A DNA stretch of 64,000 bases from Anthoceros angustus (taxonomy: Eukaryota > Plantae > Anthocerotophyta), in contig MU008201.1 in NCBI GenBank assembly GCA_010909165.1, positions 310,001 through 374,000 of the forward strand, written 5' to 3'. The notes under the pieces were generated by a model that did not search any database, had not been told where the DNA came from, and saw only the letters and a program-made list of their open reading frames with translations. A program made the position numbers and the translations under genes. Below are positions 18,809-54,600 of this stretch, one piece after another. How positions within the stretch are numbered: the stretch's first letter is position 1; each line of letters opens with the position of its first letter.

Positions 18809-20245
18809 TGTGATTAAACATGGAGAACATCAAGCACGAAGAGAATGCTCGTATCACAAAGTGCTTAAGAATCAAATTTATGAGAGTGTGTGGCGCGACT
18901 TTCGCTGACGGTCAGCCGGGCGCGCACAATCCCGTGTCGATGTAGTAAGGGGTCCGTTCCCAAAGGGAATGATTGGTTCCGTTTTGCACGTCGCGGACCG
19001 ATTCTCGCCTCGTCGTCGGGGCAGTTTCTATCTGAGACCTCAACGCAATCGTTTTCACTCATAATTAGTCTTAAGCGTCCACCGAACAGGCCCGGCGTGG
19101 CCGAACGTTTAAGGACTCGTTCTCGTCCGTTTCCTATCAGTCCGTCCTATGTCTCGTCTAGTCCGTCCCTCCTACCACGCTCACTAAGCACGTTACCAGT
19201 TGGGAAATCGTGGGTGGGTTTGCGTCCCGGACCTCCGCCGCCGCGTTCAACGGGCCTCTCGTCCGGCTCGCACGCCCTCGGAGTTCCGCTGGTCTCACCG
19301 CCCGCTCGGCGCGCCTCGCCCGGAAGAGCAAGGGTCCCTGGTCGTCTGCTCCTGCACACATCACCACACGTTAGGGTCCATCACCAGGACGTGGATCAGT
19401 CTCTCCGGGGCTGTCTTGCCTGCTCAGTGACTCAGGACTCGTGCTAGCAAAGGACACAAAAGGGTCTGCAAAGAGAACGCGGTATTAACCCCAAAAGAAA
19501 GATGCTTTACTAGAGCGGCCTCTGCCCTCTTATACTACGCTCTGAGGAGGCGTCTTTATTACACTCCTATCCTGAGCTGATGTCCAGCTCAGTGTGCCCT
19601 AGCCCCCAGCCCTACTATTTCCCTTAGCCCACCTATCTTCGTCTACGGCGGTGGGGCTGAGGGTGCCCATGATTCCGCCCTGGCGCTGGCGGCCCAATCC
19701 TTAGCTCTGGCAGTTGCGGCGCACCCAATCGGATGATCCGCGAGGCGGGGCCCCTCCCTCATCCCGAGACTGTCAGGCTGAGCTACGGGCGACGACCTGA
19801 CGACCGCAGTGACCACCAAGTGTTCCTCTTCGCCCCCTCTTAACTCGCTGGTGGGTCCCTGCTCTGCGGGTCCACCAGGAAGCTGATCTGCCTGAGTGGG
19901 CTGACGGTGATCCCCCCTTTCCACCTCCTGCGTCCGGACCTTGGGGTCTGCCCTTGCTTCCAGAGTCCGGACCTCGGGGTCCAGTCTCGATTCCGGAGTG
20001 CGGACCTCGGGGTCCGGTCTCGATTCCGGAGTCCGGACCTCGGGGTCCGGTCTCGATTCCGGAGTCCGGACCTCGGGGTCCGGTCTCGATTCCGGAGTCC
20101 GGACCTCGGGGTACGGTCTCGATTCCGGAGTCCGGACCTCCGGGTCCGGTCTCGCGGGTTCCTGGACACCCTCGCCCAGAGCATTCTCCGGGGGTCCGCC
20201 TTCACCCACCGGACCCCCTGCTTGTCTTGGATCCCTTGGACATCA
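18809..20245. mobile_element. Second LTR-like insertion (~1.44 kb)
   Basis: Starts TGTGAT directly after a 53-bp PPR remnant and ends GGACATCA(CA), where unit sequence resumes. Absent from B units. No TSD, because about 1 kb of unit sequence is missing between the flanks. Confidence 0.5.
19965..20152. repeat. 33-bp tandem repeat x~5.5 (CCGGACCTCGGGGTCCGGTCTCGATTCCGGAGT)
   Basis: Directly visible; translates as PEVRTPESRPD repeats. Confidence 0.95.
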
Positions 20246-20792
20246 CACTATCGCACAGAGCTCAAGTGCCAGAACAAAACGAGCGACAAACAACGTCTGT
20301 TTTGAAAGGGGTTTCTCCTGTCAAAAGGGGTTTTGGAAAAAATCCCAACCCTATTTCTCCGAATACCGAAGCTGGGTTGGTTTTTGTTGAGTTTTGTAGG
20401 TGTTGATCCATCGGTTTCGGGCATTCTTGGCTCCGGCACCACTTCCTGTCCGGTCATATACACCGCGGTGGCGCCTTGCACTCGGGTTCTGGCTAATTCG
20501 TCGGTGTGATGAAGGGCCTGTGACCGAATTCTTCCATAATTTCGGCATGTTAGTTGTTTCTGCAATTTGTGTGGTTCTGTATGGTTTTGTATACCAGGGG
20601 GGGGCTAGGCGCGCGTAAGTGCATGCTTAAACAAGGGTATGCGCAAACTTGTGCGCGCACATATCAAAACGAGTGCGAAACATATCACTCGACTAAGGAA
20701 ATATGTCTTTTTGGAGGTCTGCAAATGTGACGGAAGCCCCGACGACATAAGAAGTTGCACAAATTGGCGTACGTCCACATGGACACACCTCA

Positions 20793-20922
20793 TCTATCTA
20801 TCCTATGCCCTAAAGCTACGAAGATAAAACCTCTATCTATCCTATGCCCTAAAGCTATGAAGATAAAACCTCTATCTATCCTATGCCCTAAAGCTACGAA
20901 GATAAAACCTACGAAGATAAAA
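20793..20922. repeat. 39-bp tandem repeat x3 near the left end of the transposon
   Basis: CTATCTATCCTATGCCCTAAAGCTACGAAGATAAAACCT repeated; collapsed to about one unit in copy 2 (~46427). Confidence 0.9.
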
Positions 20923-20949
20923 CCAAAGATACACCCTATCACCTTTCTA

Positions 20950-23900
20950 TCCTCTACGGTGTTTCCGTCTCCTTCGATGGTGACCTTGTGCCGGATCATC
21001 ATCAAACATGCCCTCAAAAGCACCAGTAGCCGTCCGGTTCCGTTGCTCTCCGCCGCTGGGTTCTTGTTGCGATTGGTGAACCGAAGTCGATGTCTATCAT
21101 CATCACCGCTTGTCGCACCACCCTTATGGATTTTCATCCGAATCATCATTTTCTCCAATGCATCTCCTCTCGAACTTGGTGGTTTGCCACATATCTTCAA
21201 CCCTATTACCTTCTTCCACCGGTAGATGTTGAAGTTCAAAAGCGTCTTGATAAGCTCGTCCGGACTTGTAGAGTGCTATCCCTTGCAAAGGAGAACCCAG
21301 ATGCCAAAATAAATGTCTCCGATATCAACGATCGATCCGGTGCTTGGGTCGCTTCCTCCGTTATGCAAACCCTCTCTATCACTGCTGTGTGGAGCCAATA
21401 TCTCCTCCGTAGGTACCTTCCTCAAACGCATTGCTATTCTCGTCACCCACCACGGACAACTAGGTAAGGTTCGTCACATAAGAAATCCAAGTCTTCCACT
21501 GCAATCCAAAAGGCCTGCTCGCCCGTCTGTCTCACATGGGACTGCAATCATATGGCCTCGTCGATCTCGGACACATCCCCATCGAATCTCGCCAACTCGA
21601 TGGTCGCGCTCCCGGGCCTAAAATTCCGAGATACACGATGTTGCGTGGTTCGCGAATCGGAGCCGAATGACAAAGACATCCGAACGTCGATGGGATTTAA
21701 GTTCCGCTCGGCCTCGTCCCTGTTGTACCACTCCCATGCTTTTGAAGATCTCGATGGACTCCTCCTCGATTTTGTCGCAAATATCGGTTGTGATGCCAAA
21801 ACGAGTTCCACCATACTTTGTCTCCGAGATAGATATTTTTGCATCGGTTCTTCGAGGGCTTTCCTAATGGCTCAATGATTTATGCGGTCTGCGTCAGTTT
21901 GCCATGAAGTGGACATAAAGGCGCCCCTTATATCTCGCTTCTGTATTCTCAAGGAACTCCAAACCTCCAACGGTTCCCAATGTGAACAAGTAGAAAGTGC
22001 CTTGCCACGAAGAATATAATCTCCGCCTCTTTCTTCCCTTGAAATTTTGAATTGATGTTGATAACTATGATTGTGCAAATTTCACCGCATCTCGTGTCCC
22101 TCTTTTACCCATCCCATTGGGCGGACAAAGCTCCCAAATCGCCACCCTAAACCATTTTCACTTGGATTGGGTGTATAAGCTGAAGCAAACTCATAAGGGT
22201 TTCGAGTGACATTGCTTTTTGTGCCCGAGGCTTTTAGAAAAGCACGAGAACATTTGGTCAATCGCATCATGTGTGCCCGACAAGAAGGAAGCCCACCTTC
22301 ACCTTATCAAGACCCGCTTCGACAAGCATACTCAAGTATGCAAACAACAACATATTCTTGTTTTCTCCGCCGTGTTGTCCAGCAAGTAAAACGCCTTCGT
22401 AACCATCTCATATGTGAGAATAACATCCCGGATGATATGAATAGTTAAGTTGGCCGTTCAATATTGGAAGTTCACATACACCGGTCTTCATAATGTTGTT
22501 GTATACCAAACAACCCACAACATGGACCCGGATGAGACCATCCGCAAAATCCTTTGGAGGCGGGGAAAATGTGGGAGCTCCGTCTTGCTTTGGTCCATCC
22601 TGCCTATCGCCATACCAATGTATTTGCTCGTTGGCCTTTACACTTCAAACGATGTTTTGCAAGTTTTAGTCGCCCGCCGATCGCCGATCGATGTTCACGA
22701 AGATGCCGCTCATGGACCTCTCAAAAAAGATCACAGAAAGTTGACCTTGGTCCGCGACGCGCATGGCTCACCACGCGCTGCGCGCACAAGTGCGCGCACA
22801 AGTGCGCGCGCCGCGGGTGTGCGACAGCACTACCACTAGTGCGCGCGCACGTGCGCGCGCGCGCGCGCGTGCGCGCACAAGTGCGCGCGCGCGCGCGCGC
22901 GCGCGCGCGCGCAGCGCAGTGCGCGCACGCGCGCGCGCGCGCGCGCGCCCCTCCTTGCTACCGTGCGCGCACGTGCGCGCAGTGCGCGCGCGCGCGCAGC
23001 GCAGGCGCGCAGTAGTCGAGAGGCCGGAGTGCTCATGATTCCATGGAAGTCAAAAGAAACTCGATATGAAATACCTTGTTCTTGTCGGTTGCTGGTCATC
23101 TCGATGGTCGCCTTCAACGCTTCGCATTGGACGATTTTGAAAAGCACTACACTTTGGTATCTTCACTTTTGGAAAATGTTTCTTCCATAAGGCATGTATG
23201 AGAATGAGAGACGGTCAACCAGCTCTTGAAACCTCCCGCTTGTAGTCCCGGAATATCTCTCCTTTGGTATATGAATCGCAAGTTAAAATAAACACATCTG
23301 CTCACCGTTAGCTTGAAAAACTTTTCCATCCAAGCAATGCATTCCGAACATGATCTTCGCCATGCCCTTGGAACTTCAATTCGATGACCATGGTGTGTTC
23401 GTTAGTACTGCTTCAAATGTTCATACCTCCGCCATCCAATGCGTAACACTTTTGAAAAACTTCAAACACAACATTGCAACTGCTCCCTGTGAGAAAATTG
23501 AGAACATTACCTGAGGTTGCTTGTTCTACCTCGATTCTTCTTTCCCAATTTCAGGCAAACATATCTGTTACAACAATGTGAAGACCATGCTGTATTTCTG
23601 CGCACGCCTTCATGGTCCTCTTCAATCTCCGGCTTGGATAATGTCTACGCTTCACGGACAATGGATTTGTGAAAGGCTCGCCCGGATGCTATTGCCGCGG
23701 TTCGCTCGCTCCTCCTTCGCAAAATTCCCATCATTCCCGACCTCCTCCATGGAGCGATGAAGAAACAATTTCATCCGCATTCCATCTTCACGCTCCTAAT
23801 CTCTCGAATTTGGCGTGGTATCCGGAATGCTTGGCCTACCTCCTCTCCCTTCTTCAACGGAGTTGTATCCATGACAGACCTTCCGATGCCTTCCATGCTC

Positions 23901-24126
23901 GGAGTGGTGTCCATGATTGTCACCTTCTCAATCTTCCGCGACGACGCACACGGGCGGCGTACCGAAAACATCATGCGTGAAACATTTTCGAGACCGCCAC
24001 CGCCGCTATGGCCTTCCATTCGCCCGCGACTCCGACCGCACGAGTAGGATGGAGAAGCGCCAGATTTCACCAAACCGGAGCAATCAAGCAACTATGAGAC
24101 GAAGCGTCGCTATGGAGTTTGTCCAT
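20950..24126 (-). CDS. DDD transposase, Sola-like / DUF7869-type, frameshifted, probably with an intron (copy 1)
   Basis: Stitched using both copies: CIAWMEKFFK..MPN, FCALWKKHFPKVKIPKCSRFSKCVQCE, KYIGMAIDGMDQSKTELPHF (~22565-22625), FYLQLDNT.RENKNMLLFAYLSMLV (~22321-22392), KVKVGFLLVGHTHDAIDQMFS (~22245-22305), HNHSYQHQFK. Start and end positions are approximate. Confidence 0.85.
22775..23012. repeat. Alternating (GC)n/(GCAC) tract inside a probable transposase intron
   Basis: Almost pure purine-pyrimidine alternation. Minus-strand AAG|GTATTT donor near 23075; coding motifs resume near 22716. Confidence 0.9.
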
Positions 24127-24525
24127 CCGTGTTTGAACGTTAAAATATGCATACATGATTATGGTGGCGAGTTTAACCCGTTATAGTAGCCGCCAATGTT
24201 AATTACCAAACGCTCGCTTGAAATAAGGGCTATAACGGAAACCTAACCTAACCTTCAACCCGCAGTTAGTTAACCCACTTAGGCAAGTTTGAGTTATTTC
24301 GCCTAAGATTGTGCATGAACTGCGGTTCTCCGCTTGATAAACTTGGCCCGACGGCGTTGAGATCTTGGCATAGGGGCAGAGCGTTGTTGCCGGTGCGGAG
24401 GCTTGATGCGCATGGTGTTCATCGCGGGTAAATGAGCGAATTAGTGCAAGAATGCTGTTGTGCGATGCAAAGCATGGAGGCGCTTCGACATAAGGCATCC
24501 GCATGGCGAGTGCACGATAGTGGAT

Positions 24526-24568
24526 CGCGCGCGCGCGCGCGCGCGCGCGCGCGCGCGCGCGCGCGCGC
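24526..24568. repeat. Perfect (GC)n microsatellite between the divergent genes
   Basis: About 21 consecutive CG/GC dinucleotides. Confidence 0.9.
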
Positions 24569-25857
24569 ATGTGCGATTGAGGCGCACAAGGCATCCGCGT
24601 TTTGAACATGAGTGCTGCCTTGAATCGGCGGTGACGCCCAAGTGACAGGAGACCTCAAGGTCGGTGGGCAACTCTATGGCGTTGAGGCGCGCACAAGGCC
24701 ACCGCGAGTGAGGCCGAATAAACCGCCGGAAGTCTTCGCGACTGTGTGCAAAAGGTGTGTGACAAAAGGCCTCATGTCCGGTGGCAGTGTGTTTGGCCCA
24801 GCCCTGTTGTGGCATGTTACACCCTTTGCTTGTTGGAGCAGGTGCTTGTTGTGGTCACCATTTGCTTGTGGCATGCTTGTTTGTATGTTGCAAGGGTGGA
24901 AGAGCTTGGCAAAGGAGCCTCGTGAAGAAGAGGCTTGTGAAGAAGAGCCTTCTATAAAGGGAGCCGAAATAGTGTTTGGATCTATAATTTGGCTTGTTTC
25001 ATGAAATGAAGACAACTTCAACATTCCATTCTTTCCCGCATGGTTTTGCCTGCTTTCCTCTAATGCTTGACGTGTGCATCCGGGTTGACATGTCCATCCC
25101 ACTGCAAGTGCAAACGCCAACTTTGTAGAGCCTCAACCTCAACCTCCAAAACGCAAAAGGATGTGGTCAATGTCGAAGGACGAGCTCGGAAACGAGGTGC
25201 AGAGGAGGTTCGGTGGTGGTCATGAACCACCAACATCCGCATCATCACCGTCAGAAAGTCGACTCTCCTCCCACAAGGAGCATCCGCGGGAAGAGTGGCC
25301 TTCACAAGGACATCACATGGAGGCCCAAGCCAAGCAAGGAGCATCGCCGGATGATGTGGCATCAAAATTTTTCGATGATATCGGATTGTGCTGTGGACCA
25401 CATTGGAGAATCCTTTCTCCACCGAGAAAAATGTGTTGACGAGATTTGCATGATCTATCGAGCAGGCTCTTGGACAAGGAATGGTGCATACATGAAGAAG
25501 GAACCGACTCTACCTGTGAGAATTTTGATCCCATCCGCCTGGTGAACGGGTATATGGATGCGAGGACATGTAAGATTGTGGTTGGGTACATTCTATGGGC
25601 TTGGAAGTATGAAGTCCGCCGCAATGCGTAATCAAACTCTTGATATGCACAATGAGGAGAAGTTCTTTTGAGGAATTCTAATCTCACCGCTGGTCGACAA
25701 CCGATTCCAAGGCGATGCAATACCCAAGACCGCGGACGGACGCCATGACAAGTGACAAGGTATGTAGACGAAGAGAATCGACCACCACTTTTTTCGTGAT
25801 TGCACCATCAGCTGTGCCGAGATGACAGGCGCGCATGGCCGCGACCGGGTACTGAGA

Positions 25858-26270
25858 TCGCGCGCGCTTGTGCGCGCTCTCCGGGTTGCTCAAGGTGCCA
25901 GCGCCACAGAGCGCGCACGCGAGCGCGCGCACGGGGTGCGCGCACTTGCGCGGCGCGCGCGCAAGACGGTGCGCATGCGCGCATGCGCGTGCGGTGCGCG
26001 CGTGCAAGCACGTGCGCGCATGCACGCGCGCTGCGCGCATGACGGTGCGCCGCATGCGCGCTGCATGATGGTGCGCGCACAAGCATGCGACGCGCATGCG
26101 CGCCGCATGACCCGCAGGCGCACGCAGCGCAGACTGCGCGCGCGCGCGCACGTGCTGCACTGCGCCGCGCATGCGATGCGCGAGCGCATAGTGCAGCGCG
26201 CACTAGTGCGCGCGCGACTTGTGCGCGCATCAGGCTGCGCACAGCGCTCGTGTGAGTGCGGCGGCGCGAG
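25858..26270. repeat. GCGC/GCAT alternating purine-pyrimidine tract (~400 bp)
   Basis: Directly visible; lies downstream of a candidate AAG|GTATGT donor at ~25757. Confidence 0.9.
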
Positions 26271-26529
26271 ACCGGTGCCCGCCTTTGTGTACCGTTAACA
26301 AAGGATGTTTCGTTGATGCATCCGGTTAATGGAGGCGTGGTTGTCTTTGTAATGAGACATTCGGGACTATGCCGGCGCTTGTCCAAAAGAAATAGTTCGG
26401 GGTTGATGATGATGAAGATGGCCGAACAAGTTTGTGGAAAGCGATCCTCCGAGATAGCGATGGAGAGGCTAGGAAAAGCAGCAACCACACTAAAGCACCG
26501 CCATCACCGCTAATATGGGAAATTCATGA

Positions 26530-29100
26530 CGATTCAATGGAACAAGCAGAGGTACTTGCGCGGTATAGATATTCGGATGATGGCGATAGTGAGAATATGA
26601 AGAGCATGAAACCGCAAATGAAGATGTTGAGGACGAGATGCATCGACAACCGAGTTGAAGCACGACAACAATGAGAGGATATACATAGCGAGGCTCAAAA
26701 CGCTCAAATGTCCCAAGAATCGCCATGCATTGGACGATGCCCAGTTCTACAAAGTTTGGATGGGGTCAAAGAATCGTGAAGGAGCGAGCCGTGTACAACC
26801 AACCTCAAGGAGGTAGACGCGGATGTTCTCCACCGCAAGGACGAAAGGTAAACCAAAAGGTGAAAAGAGGAAGAGAGTAATGACATTGACGAGACACCAG
26901 ACGGCCGCCATCACCAAAGTCACGGACAACGACAGAGTGGAGCGAGCCCAACAAAGATAAGGACCGCTACATCAAATTCGAGTCGTCAAGACAAAAGAGG
27001 TGCATTCCGCAGATACGATATGGTTGCCATCACCAAGTTGAAGCGCAGACTACATTACTCGTGACGCCGATCCAAGAGTGGATGAATCATGGGGAAAACA
27101 TCTTCTCCGGAAATTAAAAGGGACCTGCAAGAGGGAGTACTTCCTCGCTATGTATGATCGATCCAAGGAGTGCAAGCTGGAGGTCTTTGACAAAGACAAG
27201 TTGAAAAGGCAGCAGACACCATGGGAGTATTGGTGGGAACCAGCCGGCGCTTCCAACGCAGACGAAGACCCGGAGAACTCACACTTCCGATATGGAAGCT
27301 CATATATATGCAGCTTAACTGCAGAGATGCGTGTCCGCCACGATCACAATGTCAAGGCAGATTTAAGAGGATGTCTTTCATTGAGCAAGTCCTATATTCA
27401 CGATGAAATGAAAATTGCCGAGGAGGGTATTAGCATTACAATGGATTGAAGTACAATCTATATCGGATGCTAGGCGTCATCGGACGCTCGATCGGGAAGA
27501 AATGCGACTTGTCGACAAGCCGTGCTATGCATTGCTAGTGTCCCGCCTCATGTGTGGACACGGTGGACGAGGTTTTCGATCTTTGGGAGAGGGTGAGCCC
27601 CGAGCAAGGTAACCGAAGAAAGGCAGCAAGAGGGGAAATCAAAACGTGGGACAGACAGCGATGGATCCAAATTTGATTATAAAGCCAATGCATGCGACCA
27701 ATTGGAGAGTTTTCTGGCATGCCTGTGAAGCAGTGAAAAGGATTATGTTCATACTGGAGAAAGTGATTCAAGGCGAGTTGACCGTGAGCGCATGAAAACG
27801 TGGATAACGGCCAAGAAGTTGAATGTCATCCGCATGATTTTGCTCGACCGAGGTGCAATTCATTTGCGTGGTTGAGCGAGAATATCCGAGGCAACACCGT
27901 AAGATATAGCGAAATTTCAACCGTGTTTGATCACACAGTGTACACACGCGTCCGCTCGAGTTAGCAAGTCGCAAACTAGTTTGCGACTCTCATGTTGCAC
28001 CTATGAACGCTCTCCATCCTGCGTATATCAAGCATAAGAGTACAAAGAGAAGATGATACCCGATAGCTTCAAAGAGCACATCAATGCGGCAAGAAATTGG
28101 AAGAGGGTGGAAGATTTGCAGAGAGTGAGGAAGACAACGACGCAAAACTAGACATTTTCCATGTTCAAAAGCAAGCAAAGGTCCGCTACTGTAATAACCG
28201 GTGATATTCGTGAAATGGCTGCCTACTTGGGGAAAAGAGAATACAAGTCGTTGGTCGCCGATTTACCAAGGGGCAATTTATCGGAGACATGGGATAAGGA
28301 GATGACATGTGAGGATTTGGAGAAGATAATGGATGGATTCATGACAATCACCGAATGCAAGACTTTCCGTGATATTCATGCATGGACTGACATGCGATGT
28401 CCAAATGCACCGCGAAAATGGTGTGAAAAGGGGGTTTATACAATGGTCCGGGAGAAAGACAATTGGTTTCTGGACGAGGGACTTTACGAGAATCATGAGT
28501 ACATGATGTGGTATGGTGTTCACCCAATCTGAAGATATGAGGAAGTGCGTGCATTGTCCAATAGTGCAAGATTGGAGCAATGCTCGCTTATTCGATAGCG
28601 CTGAAGAAACTTTTGAATGTGTCCAACGATGGCCATGTTGTTTCTCCTTACCAAAAGCCAATAGGGTTGATGGTCCGCTATATGACCTATTCACGTAAAG
28701 AGGGGAATGGGTTATAGATGGATGCTGGAAGCGGAGTGGAATACTTATGCATTACCGAAGGGAGGAATCAGATGTTGACCAAGACGGAGGAGCACAATAT
28801 TCATCGAACAGTATTACAGGCCATGAAGTGTTTCCATGACGAGGAAGAGTTGACCACCAAACCACACAAACGTGACATCCGGTTTTGCCAAAGAGATGGC
28901 TGAGGGAGATCTGGCCGCAACGCTACACTTGGTTCAAGGAACATGCGCACCCATCGACCTTCAAGACTTGAGTCAATCACAGGGAAGAAGAAGGAGAAAG
29001 ATGGCAAAAGGTCCGAAAAACCCTAAGAACCCGAGGAAAGAAGTGCGAAGACCAAGAAAGCGACCCTACTTGGGACAACCAACATCCGAGACGCTTTTTT
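26530..29100 (+). CDS. Putative ParB-like domain + beta-class (N6-adenine/N4-cytosine) DNA methyltransferase, frameshifted (copy 1)
   Basis: IGGN(Q/H)S at 27229-27243, then HDHN...MSFIEQV. VITGDIREM..LGKREYKSLVADLPRG....WD at 28191-28295. SPYQKPIGLM at 28643-28672. DLFT.EGEWVIDGC.GSG......EGRN at 28684-28768. Gene boundaries are approximate. Confidence 0.7.
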
Positions 29101-32100
29101 TGGCGAATCCCAAGGTGGAGAAACGCCATATCTTCCTCTTGCTATTTACGATCCGCAACGGCTGCAGGAGAACGATGACATCGTCGTCCCGAGGACGGAA
29201 AGACAACATTCGCCAAACTAGCTAGAAACATACACCGTTGTCATGTGGTGGAGACTAACAGCGTCTCTCAGCATAGGGGTTATTCTCCATTAAAGGGGTT
29301 TGGGTCCCTAAAGACCAAAAAATGACCCCCGAAAACGGGCCAAAATGCATCATCTTTAGCAAAACCACGCTTTAGACAGGTACTGAAAGACATTGACCAT
29401 GTTCTTTTCTCGTGAATACTTACGCTACAGGTTGAAGTCAAGAAGGTTCATGGATTTCACCTTCACAAGGAAGGGATTTCAAGGATTTTTAACAGTGCTA
29501 GGAATCCTAAACACCTCTTTCGCAGCGATAGTACTTCCTAGCAGGTGAACAGAGGGCAAACCAAACAAAATTAGTCCAAAGAGCAAACTACGGACGTCGG
29601 CGCAACCAACACGCAAAAGTAGCAAGCGAAGAGAACCGTACGGACGTCCCCGAATTGTGAGAGAACATTAACCGATAGCTCGATCATGGCCATCTCGAGA
29701 GGACCAAACTACGACTCTAAAAGTAGCGCTGGACGTCTGCACGAGTACACAACCGGATCTCCATTGTTAGAGTGAAAACATAAGGAATTGGAACAATGCG
29801 CCGGACGCACATTGGCGGAGTCTACTACGTCCGGCGATTTTCTGAGACCCCAATCTTGTGGGCGTCGCGAGATGGAAATGGGATGCGGACGTCCGGCAGA
29901 CATGTATATATTGTTTTCTAGAATATGCTGGATAGGTGATAGACTCAATGGCATAAGAACCAAAAGGTTAAGCGCCCTGGTCGGATCAGACCGGGGGTGC
30001 TTGATGGTGCTTGCTGTTAAGAATTTGGGTCGATTAGAACTAGGATGGTTTTGCTTTTTTGGCGCTTTGAAAACTTTGTAACAACTCCTTTGTTAAGCAA
30101 CCTAGAGGCATATCAATACTAGGATGGAGTGTTGATTTTTAGTGGTTTGAAAAATTTGTAAATCATCCCTAGATCTAGGCGTAAAGTCATGAATATTATT
30201 TTTGAAAATCATTTGTTGGTTGATGTTATATTCCCACATTCGCTTTGTATACAACATGTAAAACCTTTTGGCCTTACTCTATGTGCCCTTCCGATGACTT
30301 GCTGGATCTCTTTGATTGGTGCGCCAAAATGTCCGCTCATTCGAGTTTGATGCACGATAGATGCATAGGCCTTGGTTTCTAGATGAGCTACATTTTCCAA
30401 AATTCGACATGTATGATGGTGGTTTCTAATGGCCAACCTTTTGAAGACGACAATGTTTCACAATGTTTTGCGAGAAGCAAGAAAATAAATAGAATAGATG
30501 ATTTGTCCTTGAGTAATGAAAGCTTGGATGTAGTCGAACACAAGTATAAGAGAGCATCACCGCCACCGCGAGCCCTAGTGAGAGCCATGAGTATCCGAAG
30601 AAGAGGGTCGTCGCCGTGGGGTTTTGACCAAATGCTGAGTATTTCAGTGAGGCTCAAGGAGGACCTGTCTATACCCACCGTGACGCCCACATGTGGCGCA
30701 CTAGGTGTTCAGAGACTAACTATAGCCAAGCTTCGCCAGAGATTTTGAATTTAAGATCGACTTGCTCCATGTGCCACCCATGGATAGATTAAGGTTGAAA
30801 GCGACGACTTGACAAGAAGAAATGTAAGCTCAAGAGTTTGATCAAGAACGGTTGAGGAGGCCTCACCATCCTTTACCTTGTCCCTCACGGGCCCAATGTC
30901 AGATCTGCGCGGCTTATCTCCGACACGGAGGCCAGTCGATGGTATGCCCGCCGTCTGGATTGCTCAATCACGGGGTTTGAAAAGAGAATTGATGTGAGTG
31001 TTGGTGCGGTGGCAAGTGTGCACAAGCAACTTGAACGAAAGTGCTTGCCTACACAAGTATTGACGCAACCCTCTCCAAACCCGTGTATTGCACCTCTTTG
31101 GAGTATAAGGACGTTCGGTGCACTCCAATTCTTTGGAGCATAAGTGCGCCACCATCCGCCACTTGGTACAAAGGTGTGTCCATTTGTGGTGACGGTGAGC
31201 ACATTAGGTCTTCTTTGGGCTCGATGCATGGGCTGTGGGTTCAAATCACCAAAATGGAAATGAGACATGCATTTTGTATGGTTAGCCAAAATGGGGTTGA
31301 GACAAACCCTGCGCCGAGAAACACCTGATTTAAATGTGAGTGCGCGCATGTTTGTGCACACTGCACTACCAAGGAAAAAGCTGATCGTGAATGTCTCGGA
31401 TCGCTTTCCTCGTAATTCCGGCGTACAATGTGAGATATCGTGTATCGCAACAATAATTGAAATGTTTTGCGGTGACATGTCAGGAGAAATACCAAAAGGT
31501 CGATTCCAAGTGGATTTCCGGCGTGTGCGTAAAGGTCCGGAACGTCCATAAAGGGGTTTGGAGAAACCCCTTTCAAAATGTACTGACAACACTTGCGTAA
31601 CATCGAACAATCATTTGAAAAGTCGCAGGACGGATGGAATCGGAGGCTCTGCAGAGCGAGCGAGACCGAGGCCCCGACTCACGGGCTCCGCCCAACTAAC
31701 CTTAGATCATCTTGTACATGGCCACGCCTAGAGCACACTGCTTGGCCCAATCTCGCAAGTGGCCAAGTTCCAACAATTCAAGCGAGCTTCAAAATTCGCA
31801 ATCGTGGCCCCGCAACATGTAAATGTAAGGTAAAGCGTCGCTTGACCGAGCATGAGGAGTTTCAACACGGATGTGGAGGCACCGACCTATCTCCATGTCC
31901 AGGCGAACACATGCGCTTCAAAATTACAACTAATGTATGTGTGTGAGACTAATGTGTGAGGCAGCACTCCATGAAAATACTCATAAGTGTTTCCACATGT
32001 ATCTATCTCGGTTTCAAAGATCGCCCCATGGAGTAAACTAAGCTAAGTAGCACGAGGTATTCTCTCTTGGAAGGTACTTCATCCGGTTCCTTATGCGGTG

Positions 32101-45945: not shown

Positions 45946-46499
45946 CACTGTCGCGCAGGCTCGTGCGTAACAAAACGAGCGACAAACAACGCCTGCTTTG
46001 AAAGGGTTTCTCTGTCAAAGGGTTTTGGAAAAATCCCAACCCTATTCCAAAAATTGGCTGGTTGGTTTTGTTGAGTTTTGTAGGTGTTGATCCATCGGAT
46101 TCGGGCATTCTCGGCTCGACTTCTGTCGTCATTTACCGGTGGCGCCTTGCACTCGGGTTCATGGATATGTCGGTGTGATGAAGGGGCTGTGAGAATTCTT
46201 CCATAATTTCGGCATGTTAGTTGTTTCTGCAATTTGTGTGGTTCTGTATGGTTTTGTATACGTGGGGCTAGGCGTAAGTGCTTAAACAAGGGTATGCGCA
46301 AACTTGTGCGCGCACATATCAAAACAGTGCGAAACATATCATTCGAGAAATATGTCTTCTTGGAGGTGATGTGGCGGAAGCCGGCGACATAAGTTGCACA
46401 AATTCGCGTCCACATGACACACCTCATCTATCTATCCTATGCCCTAAAGCTAGAAGATACCCTATCTATCTATCCTCCTCTATCCTCTAAAGCTACGTG

Positions 46500-49400
46500 T
46501 CCCTATCACCTTTCTATCCTCTACGGTGTTTAGTCTCCTTCGAGTGACCTTGTCGGATCATCATCAAACATGCCTTCAAAAGCACCGATGGCCGTCCGGT
46601 TCCCTCTGCCGCGGGTTCTTGTTGCGATTGGTGCGGCCGGAAGTCGGATGTCTATCATCGCGCTTGTACTACACCACCCTTATTTATTTTCATCCAAATC
46701 ATCTTCCTCCTCTCCTCTGGTGGTGGTTTGCCATTATCTTCAACCCTACCTTCTTCCACGGTGGTAGATGTTGAAGTTCGAATAGCTTTGTCTTGATAAG
46801 CTCACGTATGCGGACTTGTAGAGTGCTATCCCTTGCAAAGGAGAACCCAGTATGCCAAAATAAATGTCTCCGATATCAGCAGATCCGGTGCTTGGGTCGC
46901 TTCCTCCGTTATGCAAACCCTCTCTATCATTGTGTGGAGCCAATATCTCCTCTGGTAGGTACCTTCCCTCAAAGCGCATTGCTATTCTCTGTCACCCACC
47001 GGACAACTAGGTAAGGTTCGTCACATAAGAAATCCAAGTCTTCGACCGCAATCCAAAAGGCTGTTCGCGATCTCACATGGGATGCAATCATATGGCCTCG
47101 TCGATCTCGGACACATCCCATCGAATCTCGCCAACTCGATGGGCTGCGGCCTAAAATTCCGATACATGGCGTTTCGGTTTGGCTGGGCCGGAATGACAAA
47201 GACATCTGGAGCGTCGATGGGATTTAAGTTCCTCGGCCCTCGTCCCTGTACCACTCCCATGCTTTTGAAGATCTCGATGGACTCCTCCTCGATTTTGTCG
47301 CAAATATGTGATGCCAAACGAGTTCCACCATACTTTGTCTTCCGATAGATATTTTTGCATCGGTTCTTGAGGGCTTTCCTAATGGCTCTCAATGATTTAT
47401 GCTGCGTCGCGGTTTTGCTGAAGTGGACATAAAGGCGCTCCCCTTATCTCTGTTGGTATTCTCAAGGAACTCCAAACCCTCAACGGTTCCCAATGAGTAG
47501 TGAAAGTGCCTTGCCACGAAGAAGTATTACGTGGCTCCATGACTCTTTCTTCCCTTGAAATTTTGAATTGATGATAACTATGATTGTGCAAATTCTTACG
47601 CATCTCGTGTCCCTCTTTACCCATCCCATTGGGCGGACAAAGCTCACGAAATCGGCCACCTCGGAAACCATTTTCACTTGGATTGGGTGTATAAGCACGA
47701 TGAATCAAACTCATAAGGGTTTCGAGTGACATTGCTTTTTGTGCACGAGACTTTTAGAAAAGCATGAGAACATTTGATCAAGCTGCATCATGCGTGTGCG
47801 ACAAGAAGGAAGCCCACCTTCACCTTATCGAAGACCGCTTCTCGACAAGCATACTCAAGTATGCAAACAACAACATATTCTTGTTTTCTCGGCCGTGTTG
47901 TCCAGTTGCAAGTAAAACGTCTTGAGAACCATCTCATATGTGAGAATAACATCACGGATGATATGAATAGTTAAGTTGGCGTCGTTCGAATATTCGGAAG
48001 TTCACAAACACCACGGTCTTCATAATGTTGTTGTATACCAAACAACCCACAACATGGACCCATGAGACCATCGCAAAATCCTTTGGAGGCGGGAAAATGT
48101 GGAGCTCGTCTTGCTTTGGTCCATCCGTCTATCGCCATTCCAATGTATTTGCTCGGTTGGCCTTTACACTTCAAGCGATGTTTTGCAAGTTTTAGTCGCT
48201 TGATCGCCGATCGATGTTCACGAAGTCTTGCTCATGGACCTCATCACGAAAAAATGGATCACTGGGTTTTCCTTGGTGCGCCGCTGCATGGACCCATGGA
48301 CCCGCGCACGTCGCGCTGTGCGCGTGCGCGCAGCAGCGCACAGCGTGCGGCGCTGCTGCACGCCGTCGGCGCGCGTGCGCGCACTCGCGCGCAGTGCCCG
48401 CCGCCGTCGCGCGCAGCGCGCTCCACTCGTGGGCGCGCGCGCATCAGCGCCATTGCGCGCGCGTCGCGCACCCCATGTTCGCGCCTGCGCGCACCACATG
48501 TGTGCTGCGCGCGCATGCGCGCACGTGTGCGCGCCGCACGCGCAGGCGAGCGGCGAGTGCTCATGATTCCATGGAAGTCAAAACGAAAACTCGGGATATA
48601 AAATACCTTGTTCTTGTCGGTTGCTGGTCATCTCGATGGCTGTCTTCAACGTTTCGCATTGGACGCATTTTGAAAAACGGCTACATTTTGGTATCTTCAC
48701 TTTTGGAAAATGTTTCTTCCACAAAGCACAGAAGTGAGAATGAGAGACGTTAGTCAAACCAGCTCTTGAAACCTCTCGTTTGTAGTCCTGGAATATCTCT
48801 CCTTTGGTATATGAATCTGGCAAGTTGAAAATTGAAACATTGGGCATTCGTTAGCTTGAAAAACTTTTCCATCCAAGCAATGCATTCCGAACATGATCTT
48901 GATTTGGGCGTCCTTGGAACTTCAATTCATGACCATGGTGTGTTCGTTAGTACTCTGTTTCAAATGTTCATCGCCATCCAATGCGAACACTTTTAAAACT
49001 TCAAACAACATTGCAACTTTTCTCGGAGAAAATTGAGAACATTGCGACGATGGGGTTGTTCTACCTCGATTCTTCTTTCCAATTCTCGAGGCAATCCCAA
49101 GCGATTCTTCTGAATGAAGACCATGCGTTATGTTCTCAATTGCGACTTCATGGTCCTCTTCAATCTCCGGATAATGTCTACGCTTCGGGCAATGTTCAAT
49201 ACGTGGCGTGGCTCGGCTGGATGCTATTGCCGTGGTGTTCTACGCATCCCTTCCGCAAAATTCCCCATCATTCCGACCTCCTCCATGGGCGATGAAGAAA
49301 CAATTTCGCCATTCCATCTTCACCTCGTTCTAATCTGGATTTGGCGTGGTATCCGAGCTTGGCCTACCTCCTCTCCCTTCAAGCGGAGTTGTATCGATGA

Positions 49401-49640
49401 GAGACCTTGATGCCTTCCATGCTCGGAGTGGTGTCCATGATTGTCACCTTCTCAATCTTCCGACGGCGCGGTCTGAAGGCGGCGTACTGCACAACATCAT
49501 TTTCGTGACCGCCACGCCGCTATGGCCTTCCGCCGCCCGACTTGGACCGCCGAGTAGGATGGAAGCGCTGCATTTCACCACTTCTTCAAAAGCGGTGTCG
49601 CAACTAAGGAAGAAAGCTGCGTATTATGGAGTTTGTCCAT
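46500..49640 (-). CDS. Sola-like/DUF7869-type transposase copy 2 (heavily frameshifted)
   Basis: ORF 48578..48847 (FCALWKKHFPKVKIPKCSRFSKCVQCE), KYIGMAIDG (~48125-48152), FYLQLDNT (~47893-47917), HTHDA.DQMFS (~47765-47800). Confidence 0.8.
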
Positions 49641-52019
49641 CGTGTTTGAACGTTAAAATATGCATACATGATTATGGTGAGTTTAACCCGTTATAGTAGC
49701 CGCCTTAATTACCAAACGTTCTTGAAATAAGGGCTATAAGCAACCTAACCTAACCTTCAACCCGATTAGTTAACCACAGTTAGGCAAGCAGATTTTTGCG
49801 CATAAGATTGTGCCCAGAACCTTCGTGGGTTCTCGTTGGATAAACTTGCTTGGTGTGATTTGATTTCCTTGTGAAGTGAGCAAGAAGCGGTTCGGTGTCG
49901 ACTTGCATGTTCATTGGCGTCATGGACGAGGCATCCCACGTGTTGGGCATGAGCATGTGGTGGCGGTTGAGTGCGCAAAGAAGCAGCGTTCGGTGTCGAC
50001 TTGCAGCGATTGGGCGTTTCGGACACAAGGCATCCTTTTTGAGAGTGTGCGGTGGATCGGCGGTGAGAGCGCCCAAGTGCGGCAAGACCGCGCGTTCTTG
50101 GTGTGCGCACATGTGCATTGGATGGGCTTTCGGCACAAGGCTCGCGTTTGAACATGAGCTTTATTGAATCGGCGGGTGGCGCCCAGTGTGAGAGACCTTC
50201 GGTGGGCGACCTCTTGATTGGAGCGTTTGGGCACAAACCATGCGTTTTGTCTTGAGCGACCGTGCAGTGAAGTCTTCGACCAGTGTGTGCGCCAAAAAGT
50301 GTGACAAAAGGCCTCTGTCCGTTTGTGGCGAGGCGGTCGGTCGCGGTTGGTGCACCGCCTCTTGCTTGCATGCACCCTGCACCTTGGGTATGGTGCTTTT
50401 GTGGTGCATCAACCCATGCTTGTGGTGAGCCTTGGTCTTTGCTTCAGCGGTGTGGTGTGGCACCGGGAGTTCGCGTTGTGAAGAAGGAGCTTGTGAGCCT
50501 TCTATAAAGGAGAAATAGCAGTTTGTGATCTATAATTTGGCTTGTTTCATGAAATGAAGACAACTTCAACATTCCATTCTTTCCGCATGGTCCGGTTGCC
50601 TCCGTTTTCCTCTAATGCTTGGCGTGTGCATCTGCGGTTGAGACATGTCCATCCCACAGTGCGCGTGCAAAAAGCCAACTTTGTAGAACCTCAACCTCGG
50701 CCCAAACCTCCAAAAGCGCAAAGCGAAGCCAATGTCGAAGACGAGCTTAGGAAGAGCGGAGGAGGTTGGGTGGTGGTCATGAACCACCAACATCCGACCA
50801 TCACTGTAAAGTCGACTCTCCTCCCACAAGGAGCATCGATGGGAAGAGTGGCCTTCACAAGGGACATCACGGTGGAGGCCCAAGCAAGGGAGCATCATGC
50901 GGATGACAGGCATCAACATTTTCGATGATATCGGGATTGTGCCGGGGACCACATTGGAGAATCCTTTCTCTGGAGAAAAATGTGTTGGAGATTTGCACAG
51001 ATCTATCGAGCAGGCTCTTGGACAAGGAATGGTGCATCCATGAAGAAGGCGACTCTACAGAGAATTTTGATCCCATCCAGCGCTCGGGTGAGCGGGTATA
51101 TGGATGCGTTGAGGACACGAGAAGATTGTGGTTGGGTACATTCTATGGGCTTGGAAGTATGAAGTCCGTCATGAGAATCAAACTCTTGATATGCACAATG
51201 AGGAGAAGTTCTTTTGAGGAATTCTAACATCATCGCTGCTGGTATTGAGTGCGGACAACTGATTCAAGGCGATGCAATACTCAAGACTGCGAAGTGGACT
51301 TCGCGCCATGACAAGTGACAAGGTATGTGACGAAGAGAATCGACTCATCGGTGCACCATCACCAGTCTTTGGAGATGCATCGGCGCGCTGGCTGCAGTCC
51401 CGAGAACGGTCGCGCCTTGTCGCCGCTGCCTCGCGCATGGGTGCTTGTGCGCGCAGCACAGGCCCGCGCGCAGGCGCCTTGGGCGCGCAGCACCAGCCAT
51501 GCCGCGTGCACAGGTCTCGCGCAGCGCTTGTGCGCGCAGCAGCTCACATGCGCGCGCCGGGCAGCGCACTGTCGCGCGCCACGCGCCGCGCGACGAGCGC
51601 CCAAGTGCGGCGCATGTGCGCATGCTGAGGCACGCAGCATGTGCCCTCCAGCGCGCTGCATGCGCCGAGGACGCGCACATGCGGCGCAGCCGCGCGAGGT
51701 GCCTTGTGCATGCTGCAGTGCGCAGCGTGCGCGCCTTGTGCGTCTGTACGGAGCATGCGCGAGCGGCCGGTGCGGAAGGCGAGGGCGAGCGCCGGTGCTT
51801 TACCGTGTATGTGGATGTTTGGTTGATGCATCGGTTAATGGGCGTGGTTGTCTTTGTAATGAGACATTCGGGACTATCTTTGGCGTTTCTCCAAAAGAAA
51901 TAGTTGGGTTGATGATGATGAAGATGGCGAACAAGCTTGTGAAAGCGATCCTCCGAGATAGCGATGGAGAGGCTAGGAAAAGCGATTCGCAACCACGACC
52001 AAAACCGTCATCACCGCTC

Positions 52020-54600
52020 AATATGGGAAATTCGATGGCGATTCAATGGAACAAAAGAGGTACTTGGCGGTATAGATATTCGGATGGCGATAGTGGAGAA
52101 TATGAAGAGCATGAAACCGCAAATGAAGATGTTGAGGCGATCGTGATGTGAGTTGAAGCCACGACAACAACGAGAGGATATACATAGCGAGGGGCTCAAA
52201 ACGTTCGTCAAATGTCCCAAGAATCGCCATGCATTGGACGATGCCAGTGCTTCTACAAAGTTTGGATGAGGGTCAAAGAATCATGAAGGAGCGAGCCCGT
52301 GTACAACCAACCTCAAGGAGGTACGCGGATGTTCGTTTCACACTGCAGGACGAAAGGTAAACGCGGAAAAGAGGAAGAGGAATGACATTGAGACACGGCG
52401 ACGTCATCACCAAACAGGACGGACAACGAGTGGAGCGAGCGCAGACATAAGGACCGTTACATCAAATTCGAGTCGGTAGCACAAAAGAGGTGCATTCCGC
52501 ATACGGATATGGTTGCCATCACCAAGTTGAAGCGAGACTACATTACTCGTGGCCTTTCGATCCAGAGTGGATGAATCATGGGGAAAACATCTTCTCGGAA
52601 ATTAAAAGGGACCTGCAAGAGGGAGTACTTCCTATGTATGATCGATCCAAGGAGTGCGCGTGAGGTCTTTGACAAAGACAAGTTGAAAAGGCAGCGACAC
52701 CATGGGAGTATTGGGTGGGAACCATAGCTTCTATCCAGCGCTTCTAAGACCGGAGAACTCACACTTCCGATATGGAAGCTCATATATGCGAGCTTAACCC
52801 AAGCAGAGATGCGGTGTCGGCCACAGATCACAATGTCAAGGTGATTTCCGGAAGAGAATGTCTTTCATTGAGCAAGTCCGGTATATTCACGATGAAATGA
52901 AAATTGCGGCTGAGGAGGGTATTAGCATTACAATGGATTGGAAGTACAATCTATATCGGATGCTAGGCGTCGACGCGATCGGGAAGAAATGCGACTTGTC
53001 GACGAGCTGCTATGCATTGCTAGTGTCCCGCCTCATGTGTGGACACGGGTGGACGAGTTTTCGATCTTTGGGAGAGGGTGAGCTTCCGAGCAAAAGGGCG
53101 AAAGAGAGGAAATCAAAGCGTGGGGGCCGGATACGAGCCGGTGCGGGATCCAAATTTGATTATAAAGCCAATGCATGCGACCAATTGGAGAGTTTTCCGG
53201 GCATGCCTCGAAGCGGTGAAAAGGATTATGTTGTCCGGAGAAAGTGATTCAAGGCGAGTTGACCGTGGCGGCGTAACGTGGATACGAGGCCAGAAGTTGA
53301 ATGTCATCCGACGACATTTTGCTCGGGGGTGCAATTCATTTGCGGTTGAGAGAAATACCGAGGCACTCACACCGAAGATATAGCGAAATTTCAACCGGTG
53401 TTTGATCACATTGTAAGTACACGTGTATTTTTCAACGAGTTAGCGCAAACTAGTTTGCGCGCTTTCATGTTGCACCTATGACGTCTCCATCCCGTGCGCA
53501 GAGCGGTGAGTACAAAGAGAAGATGATACCCGATAGCTTCAAAGAGCACATCAATGCGGCAAGAAATTGGAAGAGGGTGGAAGATTTGCGAGAGAGGAAG
53601 ACAACGACGCAAACTAGACATTTTCCATGTTCAAAAGCAAGCAAAGGTCCGTTACCGGGTAATAACGGTGATATTCGTGAAATGGCTGCCTACTTGGGGA
53701 AAAGAGAATACAAGGTTGGTCGATTTACCAAGGGGCAATTTATCGGAGACATGGGATAAGGAGATGACATGTGAGGATTTGGAGAAGATAATGGATGGAT
53801 TCATGACAATCACCGAATGCAAGACTTTCCGTGATATTCATGCATGGACGGACCATGCACGGGATGTCCAAATGCACCGAAAATGGTGTGAAAAGGGGGT
53901 TTATACAATGGTGCAGAGAAAGACAATTTGGTCTTTGGACGAGGGACTTTACGAGGCTGCGAGTACATGATGTGGGTATGGTGTTCACCCAAGCTGAAGA
54001 TATGAGGAAGTGCGTGCATTGTCCAATAGTCGGTAGAGATTGGAGCAATGCCGCGTTTCGACATAAGCGATCGTGAAGAAACTTTTGAATGTGTCCAACG
54101 ATGGCCATGTTGTTTCTCCTTACCAAAAGCCAATAGGGTTGATGGTCACGCTGACCTATTCACGAAGGGAATGGGTTATAGATGGATGCTCGGAAGCGGG
54201 TGGAATACTTGCGGCATTCTTGGAAGGGCGAACGTATTGCTGTTGACCAAGAGGAGCACAATATTCATCGAGCAGTATTCAGCCATGAAGTGTTTCCTCT
54301 GAGGAGGAAGAGTTGACCACCAAACCACACAAAGCGTGGACATCCGGTTTTGCCAAAGAGATGGCGGCGGGGATCAGTTAAGCCCGGGCATAGCGCTACA
54401 CTTGGTTCAAGGAACATGCGCACCCATCGACCTTCAAGACTTGAGTCAATCACGGGGAAGAAGGAGAAAGATGGCAAAGGTCCGGAAAACCCTAAGAACC
54501 CAGACGGAAAAGAAGTGCGAAGACGAGCGACCCTACTTGGGACAACCAACCATGAGGCGTTTGGCTTTGGCGAATCCCAAGGTGGAGAAAGCGCCATATC
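52020..54600 (+). CDS. ParB-like + beta-class DNA amino-methyltransferase copy 2 (heavily frameshifted)
   Basis: GGNHS at 52714-52728; VDLPRGNLSETWD (~53719-53757); SPYQKPIGLM at 54115-54144; EWVIDGCS..GGILAAFLEGR..IAVDQEEH (~54169-54260). Confidence 0.65.

What the first reader, a model, noticed from the sequence alone, without database searches (positions are those of the whole stretch)
28190..28830. Beta-class methyltransferase domain with a non-canonical catalytic motif (DLPR instead of DPPY/SPPY)
Motif order matches the beta class: GD start, catalytic strand LVADLPRG followed by WD, then PYQKPxxL (cf. HPTQKPxxL), then the SAM-binding GEWVIDGxxGSG with downstream GRN.IAVD. Both copies read GATTTACCAAGGGGC (DLPRG), so loss of the aromatic residue is unlikely to be a single sequencing error. 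Inference: the enzyme has altered specificity or chemistry, or is a catalytically dead SAM/DNA-binding module. The leading D fits 6mA-type enzymes better than SPPY 4mC-type enzymes.
Basis: partly seen in the sequence, partly recalled or inferred. Interest (0 to 1): 0.8.

Follow-up and report, generated by a model that had tools for sequence, protein, structure and literature searches.

The report
Plant transposon's disarmed methyltransferase cargo
The odd motif lies in the cargo gene of an 11.3-kb cut-and-paste jumping gene of a plant-like genome: a bacterial-type DNA methyltransferase domain joined to a likely ParB-type DNA-binding domain, whose relatives keep the catalytic tyrosine that this version has replaced by arginine, so the protein likely no longer methylates and would at most bind its own element.

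Summary
Observation confirmed. DLPRG is in both copies (28260, 53722) and aligns column for column with motif IV of beta-class amino-methyltransferases. The gene is cargo of an 11.3-kb DNA transposon (20289-31584) with terminal inverted repeats, a 4-5-bp target duplication shown by three empty sites, and a head-to-head DUF7869 (Sola1-like) transposase. A likely ParB-like region lies upstream. Relatives keep the tyrosine: 55 of 57 eukaryotic family loci covering motif IV (53 DIPY), and about 3,900 viral stretches with D-x-P-Y-G-x5-W-D, against no methyltransferase with R or W there. So DLPR is not a family-wide new chemistry. It is not shown to be private decay either: AGG is three changes from Tyr, no stop codon is forced when both noisy copies are combined, and the element looks young. 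The two-copy argument is weak: both copies share one insertion site and shared errors. Best reading: a lineage-specific, likely catalytically dead variant of a known design (Ectocarpus Sola1-1_Ec32). The scan noted this kind of element before, in this genome and others. No usable fold was obtained.

The parts
20289..31584 (.). DNA transposon, copy 1 (11,296 bp; Sola1-like)
   Evidence: Filled site versus three empty sites near 11007, 37214 and 62742; CpG o/e 0.98 against 0.64-0.65 in the flanks, CG-rich runs removed
20285..20288 (+). Target site duplication GACA (5-bp GACAA also fits), left
   Evidence: repeated at 31585-31588
31585..31588 (+). Target site duplication GACA, right
20300..20318 (+). 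Left terminal inverted repeat core (19 nt, 100% complementary to 31560-31578); outer ~11 nt noisy
31560..31578 (-). Right terminal inverted repeat core
21875..23277 (-). Transposase fragments (DUF7869), frameshifted; head-to-head with the cargo gene; true ends not fixed
   Evidence: Pfam PF25273 31.4 bits, above the cut-off of 26, at 22270-22407; profile and tblastn hits
27141..27410 (+). Likely ParB-like region of the cargo gene (GGNH..., DHN...MSFIEQVRYIH); gene start about 26450, judged by eye
   Evidence: Aligns to the family's upstream domain: 60.0 bits in copy 2 (shuffles <=19.2) but only 22.6 in copy 1 (shuffles up to 22.4). The ParB label is by analogy to PMC12477816 and recalled motif pattern; Pfam gave no ParB hit
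28188..28800 (+). Beta-class amino-methyltransferase-like domain, without the family's introns, frameshifted in the assembly
   Evidence: motif IV to PYQKP is 386 nt against 461-518 nt in 54 family loci
28260..28274 (+). Motif IV, D-L-P-R-G; AGG (28269-28271) in the column of the family's Tyr
29591..29895 (.). Cluster of the palindrome CGGACGTCCG (3 matches here, 4 at 55044-55298); candidate binding sites, inferred
   Evidence: 10 matches in the window at <=1 mismatch, 1.21 expected, 0 of 100 shuffles reach 10; 7 of the 10 lie in the two clusters, which are duplicates of each other
45985..57074 (.). Copy 2 of the element at the same insertion site (tandem duplicate); motif IV at 53722

Best explanation
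This is the cargo gene of a Sola1-like cut-and-paste transposon, encoding a likely ParB-type DNA-binding region followed by a beta-class DNA amino-methyltransferase domain in which the base-stacking tyrosine of motif IV is replaced by arginine, so the protein likely methylates poorly or not at all and would act by binding a palindrome repeated in its own element. Shown: element ends, target duplication, transposase, homology, the D-L-P-R codons in the assembly, and tyrosine in relatives. Inferred: that the true gene is intact and the frameshifts are long-read noise; that the change belongs to this element lineage rather than to one dead copy; loss of catalysis (from mutants of other enzymes); retained SAM binding (D-x-x-S-G-x-G loop and motif II acid present, motif I Phe replaced by Cys); palindrome binding and any benefit to the element, such as protection from host silencing.
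For: Element anatomy. Homologous head-to-head layout in 5 of 6 family loci with >=4.5 kb upstream. Tyr in 55 of 57 family loci. About 3,900 viral stretches match D-x-P-Y-G-x5-W-D, and 122 of 122 sampled are beta-class, against 3 chance non-methyltransferase hits for the R/S pattern and 0 hits for W. Tyr-to-Gly in the DPPY of HP0593 abolishes activity (PMC3036652, passages), and the aromatic stacks the target base (PMC4738411; PMC10406627). AGG is 3 changes from Tyr, which suggests an old change. A path through both copies reads 552 residues with 0 stops (9 frameshift steps). Inverted repeats and target duplication are intact and CpG is not depleted. The deepest read-derived contig (depth 186 of 195) also lacks an aromatic codon, and no single insertion restores one. 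Precedent for transposon-borne inactive amino-methyltransferases: DIRS1 (PMC4738411).
Against: No close homologue was found: the window branch is 2.06 changes per site from the family, and only 12 of 31 family-conserved columns of the motif IV exon are identical. So conservation of R, and selection on the gene after the change, are untested. Intactness is inferred from noisy copies, and one 2-nt gap is shared by both. The read set behaves like noisy long reads (8 of 8 listed one-letter losses lie in homopolymer runs) and may be the assembly's own source. In RlmJ the motif IV Tyr does not stack and a Trp elsewhere takes over (PMC3814359), so loss of the aromatic need not kill activity. The ParB label has no Pfam support.
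Confidence: 0.45

Rival explanations
1. Plain decay: the cargo gene became dispensable in this subfamily, was carried along as the element spread, and the arginine is one of many neutral changes with no meaning.
For: Long branch; motif I Phe also lost; both copies share a frameshift at 28367; decayed family copies show DIPS, DILY and DIP-stop (3 of 57); Ectocarpus giant transposons are often moved in trans (PMC12477816).
Against: No stop codon is forced over 552 residues. GD, D-x-P-x-G, WD, EY, PYQKP, WVxD, GxG and GRN..VD are all still readable. Differences between the copies look like noise: other parts of the same duplication differ at only 10 of 1411 and 44 of 2780 columns.
Confidence: 0.3
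2. Active enzyme with a variant site: arginine holds the flipped base by cation-pi stacking, or a nearby aromatic such as the W of WD takes over, and the protein still writes 6mA (leading D) on its element.
For: D and the second P are kept; SAM-side motifs are present; RlmJ shows that another aromatic can replace the motif IV Tyr in stacking; the best PDB sequence matches of a family member are mostly 6mA enzymes (CcrM E 0.008, RsrI E 0.2; weak).
Against: 0 beta-class enzymes with R or W against about 3,900 stretches with Y in the same sequence context; the W of WD is also present in those Tyr-bearing enzymes, so it is not a compensating gain; Tyr mutants are inactive or weak.
Confidence: 0.13
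3. Sequencing artefact: the true codon is TGG (DLPW, canonical type) or TAY, miscalled the same way in both copies.
For: The assembly here is noisy (9% gaps between copies; differences about twice as dense near CG). Shared errors exist (28367; both copies read T at 30089 where the run reads A). TGG is one change from AGG.
Against: Both copies and the deepest contig agree on A at 28269; the copies are identical over about 115 nt from the motif onward; DLPWG-x5-WD was not found in viral contigs; Tyr would need three shared errors.
Confidence: 0.12

Closest known systems
Sola1-1_Ec32 of Ectocarpus (PMC12477816; passages and supplement rows seen, figures not)
   Same: Sola-1 element with a 4-bp target duplication biased to end in A and AACCG termini (here GACA and AACAA). 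It carries a gene on the strand opposite to the transposase that encodes a ParB-like domain plus an N4-C/N6-A methyltransferase domain, proposed to bind and modify its own element.
   Different: 21.5 kb with 282-bp imperfect inverted repeats, against 11.3 kb with a 19-nt perfect core here; brown alga versus plant-like host; its motif IV was not given in what I read; here motif IV lacks the aromatic. I did not compare the sequences.
Unnamed eukaryotic family in metagenome loci L078-L162
   Same: Colinear ParB-like and methyltransferase regions, head-to-head DUF7869 transposase, palindrome arrays in L092 and L124; groups with the window at 100/100 support.
   Different: DIPY and DLFSGTG kept; introns present where the window gene has none; palindromes differ in sequence and lie between the two genes.
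Beta-class amino-methyltransferases (PF01555: CcrM, M.RsrI, M.MboIIA, phage DLPYG enzymes)
   Same: Motif IV before motif I; DLPxG-x5-WD spacing identical to L043, L044 and L064.
   Different: Arg for Tyr; fused to an N-terminal region; carried by a eukaryotic transposon.
Plavaka PAG2/PAG3 of Bostrychia (bioRxiv 10.1101/2025.02.11.637652; passages; supplements closed)
   Same: Transposon accessory genes with PF01555 and ParB-like domains next to inverted-repeat arrays.
   Different: EnSpm-type element; ParB is fused to a 2OG oxygenase and the methylase to SET, on separate genes.
Marchantia MpDN4MT1 and rotifer N4CMT (10.1101/2021.02.12.428880, PMC8885841; passages)
   Same: Beta-class enzymes of bacterial origin in eukaryotes.
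   Different: SPPY 4mC writers domesticated as host genes, with shown activity; not transposon cargo.

Membership tests
Beta-class DNA amino-methyltransferase (PF01555) | Motif IV lies N-terminal of SAM-binding motif I | tested here: met
Beta-class DNA amino-methyltransferase (PF01555) | [DNSH]-P-P-[YFW] catalytic motif with aromatic fourth residue | tested here: not met
   DLPR in both copies; relatives DIPY. So not filed as an active member.
Beta-class DNA amino-methyltransferase (PF01555) | Pfam PF01555 score above cut-off | tested here: inconclusive
   Window pieces: no hit. Family exons of L092 and L145 pass (42.1 and 32.8 bits, cut-off 26.7) and are linked to the window by profile hits.
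Beta-class DNA amino-methyltransferase (PF01555) | F-x-G-x-G SAM-binding loop and acidic motif II | tested here: inconclusive
   Reads D-G-C-S-G-x-G (Phe to Cys) and ..AVD across noisy frames
Beta-class DNA amino-methyltransferase (PF01555) | Permuted Rossmann fold | tested here: inconclusive
   Single-sequence model had pLDDT 29.6; no alignment-based model was obtained
Beta-class DNA amino-methyltransferase (PF01555) | Methyl transfer to N6-A or N4-C | not testable with these tools
   needs an assay
Sola (Sola1) transposon | 4-bp target site duplication | tested here: met
   GACA on both sides, once in three empty sites; a 5-bp reading also fits; criterion from PMC10741241
Sola (Sola1) transposon | Terminal inverted repeats (11-1124 bp) | tested here: met
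   19-nt perfect core
Sola (Sola1) transposon | DDD transposase of the Sola1 clade | tested here: inconclusive
   DUF7869 above cut-off, with DGMDQ-, QLDNT- and GHTHD.ID-type stretches. That these mark Sola1 is recalled and taken from earlier notes; no Sola1 reference sequence was compared, and search gave no listed paper using DUF7869.
ParB-like plus methyltransferase transposon accessory proteins | N-terminal ParB-like domain fused to the methyltransferase | tested here: inconclusive
   Upstream region is homologous to the family's (60 bits) and joined by a stop-free path; no Pfam ParB hit, only DUF6551 at E 0.04-0.08 in 2 of 3 family ORFs
ParB-like plus methyltransferase transposon accessory proteins | Gene on the strand opposite to the transposase, with repeated palindromes in the element | tested here: met

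The most novel reading that the evidence does not exclude
A young, multi-copy Sola1-like family in a land plant has turned its methyltransferase cargo into an intact, intronless pseudo-enzyme (or an arginine-based variant) that is still under selection, while sister families keep DIPY. This gives a natural pair for asking whether transposon ParB-methyltransferase proteins help their element by writing a mark or merely by binding it.
Probability: 0.4. Interest if true: 0.6.

Novelty: new variant of a known kind. Interest (0 to 1): 0.36.

Why it matters
ParB-plus-methyltransferase cargo has been proposed to let transposons bind and epigenetically mark themselves (PMC12477816), but I found no functional test in the papers searched. 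If a lineage kept the gene after losing the catalytic aromatic, binding rather than methylation would be the selected function in that lineage. It also cautions against reading 6mA or 4mC capacity from motif order alone. As new methyltransferase chemistry the case is weak.

Tried and rejected
No whole genome was held, so other copies in this genome could not be read. Homologue searches with window pieces were empty or spurious: three word-based protein searches; HMMER over representatives (4 repeat-protein hits, spurious); PDB; phage tblastn; the search for related loci in metagenomes and viruses; Pfam, PHROGs and NCBIfam (only phrog_18293 methyltransferase at E 0.1). ESM Atlas: a 0.90 hit to a cluster with 10% PF01555 (a lead only); the Plavaka-like hits for 52798-53244 had low recognition and were not used. 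A 25-sequence prokaryotic profile was not significant on single fragments and only modest when frameshift-aware (top two peaks 25.2 and 23.0 bits, next 21.7, controls <=19.9). The single-sequence fold was meaningless. No alignment-based fold was obtained, so the fold and the position of Arg in it remain open. I first read the G3 allele at 28270 in run X1 as a real frameshift from accurate short reads, and rejected this after finding all 8 listed one-letter losses in homopolymer runs. An intron across motif IV was rejected by eye. A Pfam scan of 136 other open stretches missed the transposase because its pieces are short. No RNA holder was listed. No link was found between the ORF-like stretch at 24950-25750 and the family's N-terminus. 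Rows dropped before counts: L077 and L094 (the same unrelated protein, chance matches) and 27 of 84 family loci in which no motif IV exon was found. The tree used 14 family and 19 prokaryotic or viral rows after removing near-duplicates and rows with stops.

Full report
Observation. The 15-nt motif is at 28260 and 53722. In copy 1 an open stretch 28161-28529 reads ...VITGDIREMAAYLGKREYKSLVADLPRGNLSETWD...; SPYQKPIGL, EWVIDG and GRN/IAVD follow in other frames. The window is eukaryotic and plant-like (PPR and copia RT fragments) and holds a tandem duplication of about 26 kb. Earlier notes call the host a likely hornwort; I did not test that.

Sequence quality. The two gene copies differ at 593 of 3173 columns with 102 gaps, about twice as densely near CG (0.253 versus 0.129). 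Other parts of the same duplication differ at 10 of 1411 and 44 of 2780 columns. Contigs of run X1 side with copy 2 at several places where copy 1 differs. I read this as uncorrected long-read noise (inference). X1's deepest contig over 28199-28369 matches letter for letter except for one G missing in the GGGG of the motif (depth 186 of 195). All 8 listed one-letter losses of X1 fall in homopolymer runs, including another G4 at 29295. So the missing G is not evidence of a real frameshift, and X1 may not be independent of the assembly. Both copies share a 2-nt gap at 28367 that an X1 contig fills, so two-copy agreement does not exclude systematic error. Still, AGG is three changes from Tyr or Phe and one from Trp, and no single insertion into the X1 allele gives an aromatic.

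Homologues. Standard searches failed (see Tried and rejected). A DNA pattern for PYQKP-x16-W[VI]xD found 85 metagenome loci. 84 encode one intron-bearing eukaryotic family and 1 is a chance match. 78 of the 80 listed loci come from one series of assemblies, so they are not independent; L105 comes from another source and has DAPY. Of the 84, 57 cover motif IV: DIPY 53, DAPY 1, DILY 1, DIPS 1, DIP-stop 1 (43 DIPY of 47 distinct exons). Family C-terminal exons pass the PF01555 cut-off (2 of 2 tested). Family profiles hit the window gene at E about 4e-7 for both the motif IV exon and the motif X/I exon. The pattern came from the window, so the latter hit is partly circular; the former is not. Frameshift-aware alignment puts DLPR on DIPY, with 67.4 and 51.3 bits against shuffles of 18.2 or less. 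A tree groups the window with this family (100/100) on a long branch of 2.06. Viral beta-class enzymes have the same DLPYG-x5-WD spacing as the window. In viral contigs the Tyr pattern matches about 3,900 stretches (122 of 122 sampled are beta-class), the Trp pattern 0, and the Arg/Ser pattern 3, none a methyltransferase. The window gene lacks the family's intron between motif IV and PYQKP (386 and 396 nt against 461-518) and reads straight from motif I to motif II.

Context. Family loci carry a DUF7869 transposase head-to-head with the gene in 5 of 6 loci with enough upstream DNA. The window has the same transposase on the minus strand at about 21875-23277 and 47400-48850. A 19-nt perfect inverted repeat (20300-20318 and 31560-31578) and three empty sites define an element at 20289-31584 flanked by GACA. 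Copy 2 (45985-57074) has the same flanks, so the two copies are one insertion, duplicated. CpG o/e is 0.98 inside and 0.64-0.65 outside, consistent with a young insertion. Upstream of the methyltransferase domain a region aligns to the family's GGSH...WDHN...MSSIERIRFFH domain (60 bits in copy 2, not above shuffles in copy 1). I call it ParB-like by analogy and recall; Pfam does not. A best path through both copies joins this region to the end of the methyltransferase in 552 residues with no stop and 9 frameshift steps (heuristic). The palindrome CGGACGTCCG clusters 3' of the gene (7 of 10 window matches, 1.21 expected). Family loci L092 and L124 have different palindrome arrays between the two genes; 4 other long loci showed none of that kind.

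Mechanism. In amino-methyltransferases the fourth residue of motif IV stacks the flipped base (PMC4738411 and PMC10406627, passages). Tyr-to-Gly inactivates HP0593, and that paper reports reduced activity for M.TaqI Y108A/G (PMC3036652, passages). The ancestral state here is Tyr, so Arg is derived and likely disables or weakens catalysis. Three codon changes, an apparently stop-free frame, otherwise readable motifs and a young element argue that the change is older than this insertion and belongs to the lineage. I therefore commit to a likely dead enzyme fold kept as part of a DNA-binding accessory protein (0.45), ahead of plain decay (0.30), a variant active site (0.13; RlmJ shows that another aromatic can stack, PMC3814359, passages) and a shared miscall (0.12). 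Binding, SAM use and benefit to the element are untested.

Comparison. It works like the ParB-like plus N4/N6 methyltransferase cargo of Ectocarpus Sola1-1_Ec32 (PMC12477816; passages and supplement rows). It meets the Sola criteria for target duplication and inverted repeats (PMC10741241, passages), but the clade of the transposase was not tested against a Sola1 reference. It fails the catalytic-motif test for an active beta-class enzyme. Other papers seen as passages: 10.1101/2021.02.12.428880, PMC8885841, 10.1101/2025.02.11.637652 (supplements closed and may list more accessory genes), PMC5751038, and 10.64898/2026.05.21.726589 (no mention of Sola or ParB). Searches listed no paper on a land-plant Sola element with this cargo or on a DLPR motif; none used DLPR as a term, and subscription papers are mostly missing. 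Earlier notes of this scan describe the same kind of element in this genome (11.5 kb) and 'disarmed' versions in Mutator-type elements elsewhere. They gave me the Sola and ParB lead and are not counted as support.

Verdict. Real feature, known design, with a lineage-specific loss of the catalytic aromatic that needs accurate sequence to confirm. New variant of a known kind; interest 0.36.

Noticed in passing
window 22780-23010, 24515-24580, 25850-26250 and the matching places 48300-48550, 51400-51750: CG-rich pseudo-repeats at the same places in both copies, one inside the transposase frame where the family has about 16 residues but the window about 400 nt. They may be basecalling artefacts over structured or modified DNA, or a real insertion.
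   Followed up: partly
window 10909-37113 / 37114-62641 / from 62642: Tandem array of about 26-kb units with PPR fragments. Each unit holds one empty and one filled copy of the transposon's target repeat. It could be partly an assembly duplication.
   Followed up: partly
window 24950-25750 (+) and 50500-51230: ORF-like stretch between the transposase and the cargo gene, with no Pfam hit and no match to the family's N-terminus; possibly a third gene.
   Followed up: partly
window 30016-31017: Read-contig depth rises to 900-1800 near the right end of the element, suggesting many short non-autonomous derivatives (depth is not a copy number).
   Followed up: no
run X1 on window 28240-28308: A divergent contig (13 differences in 69 letters, no gap, depth 8.7) spans motif IV, but its letters were not shown; it may be a paralogue with another residue there.
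   Followed up: no
L124 (about 3.0-3.2 kb before PYQKP) and L092 (3.2-3.5 kb before): Arrays of spaced palindromes (CGATG-N5-CATCG x4; CGATA-N5-TATCG x6) between transposase and cargo gene, different in each subfamily, as expected if binding site and protein co-vary.
   Followed up: partly
L120: Transposase lies downstream on the same strand as the methyltransferase gene, unlike the head-to-head layout of 5 other loci.
   Followed up: no
window 16192-18341 (+) and 19893-20189: Long coiled-coil-like ORFs without a Pfam family above cut-off, and a 33-nt tandem repeat just left of the insertion site.
   Followed up: no
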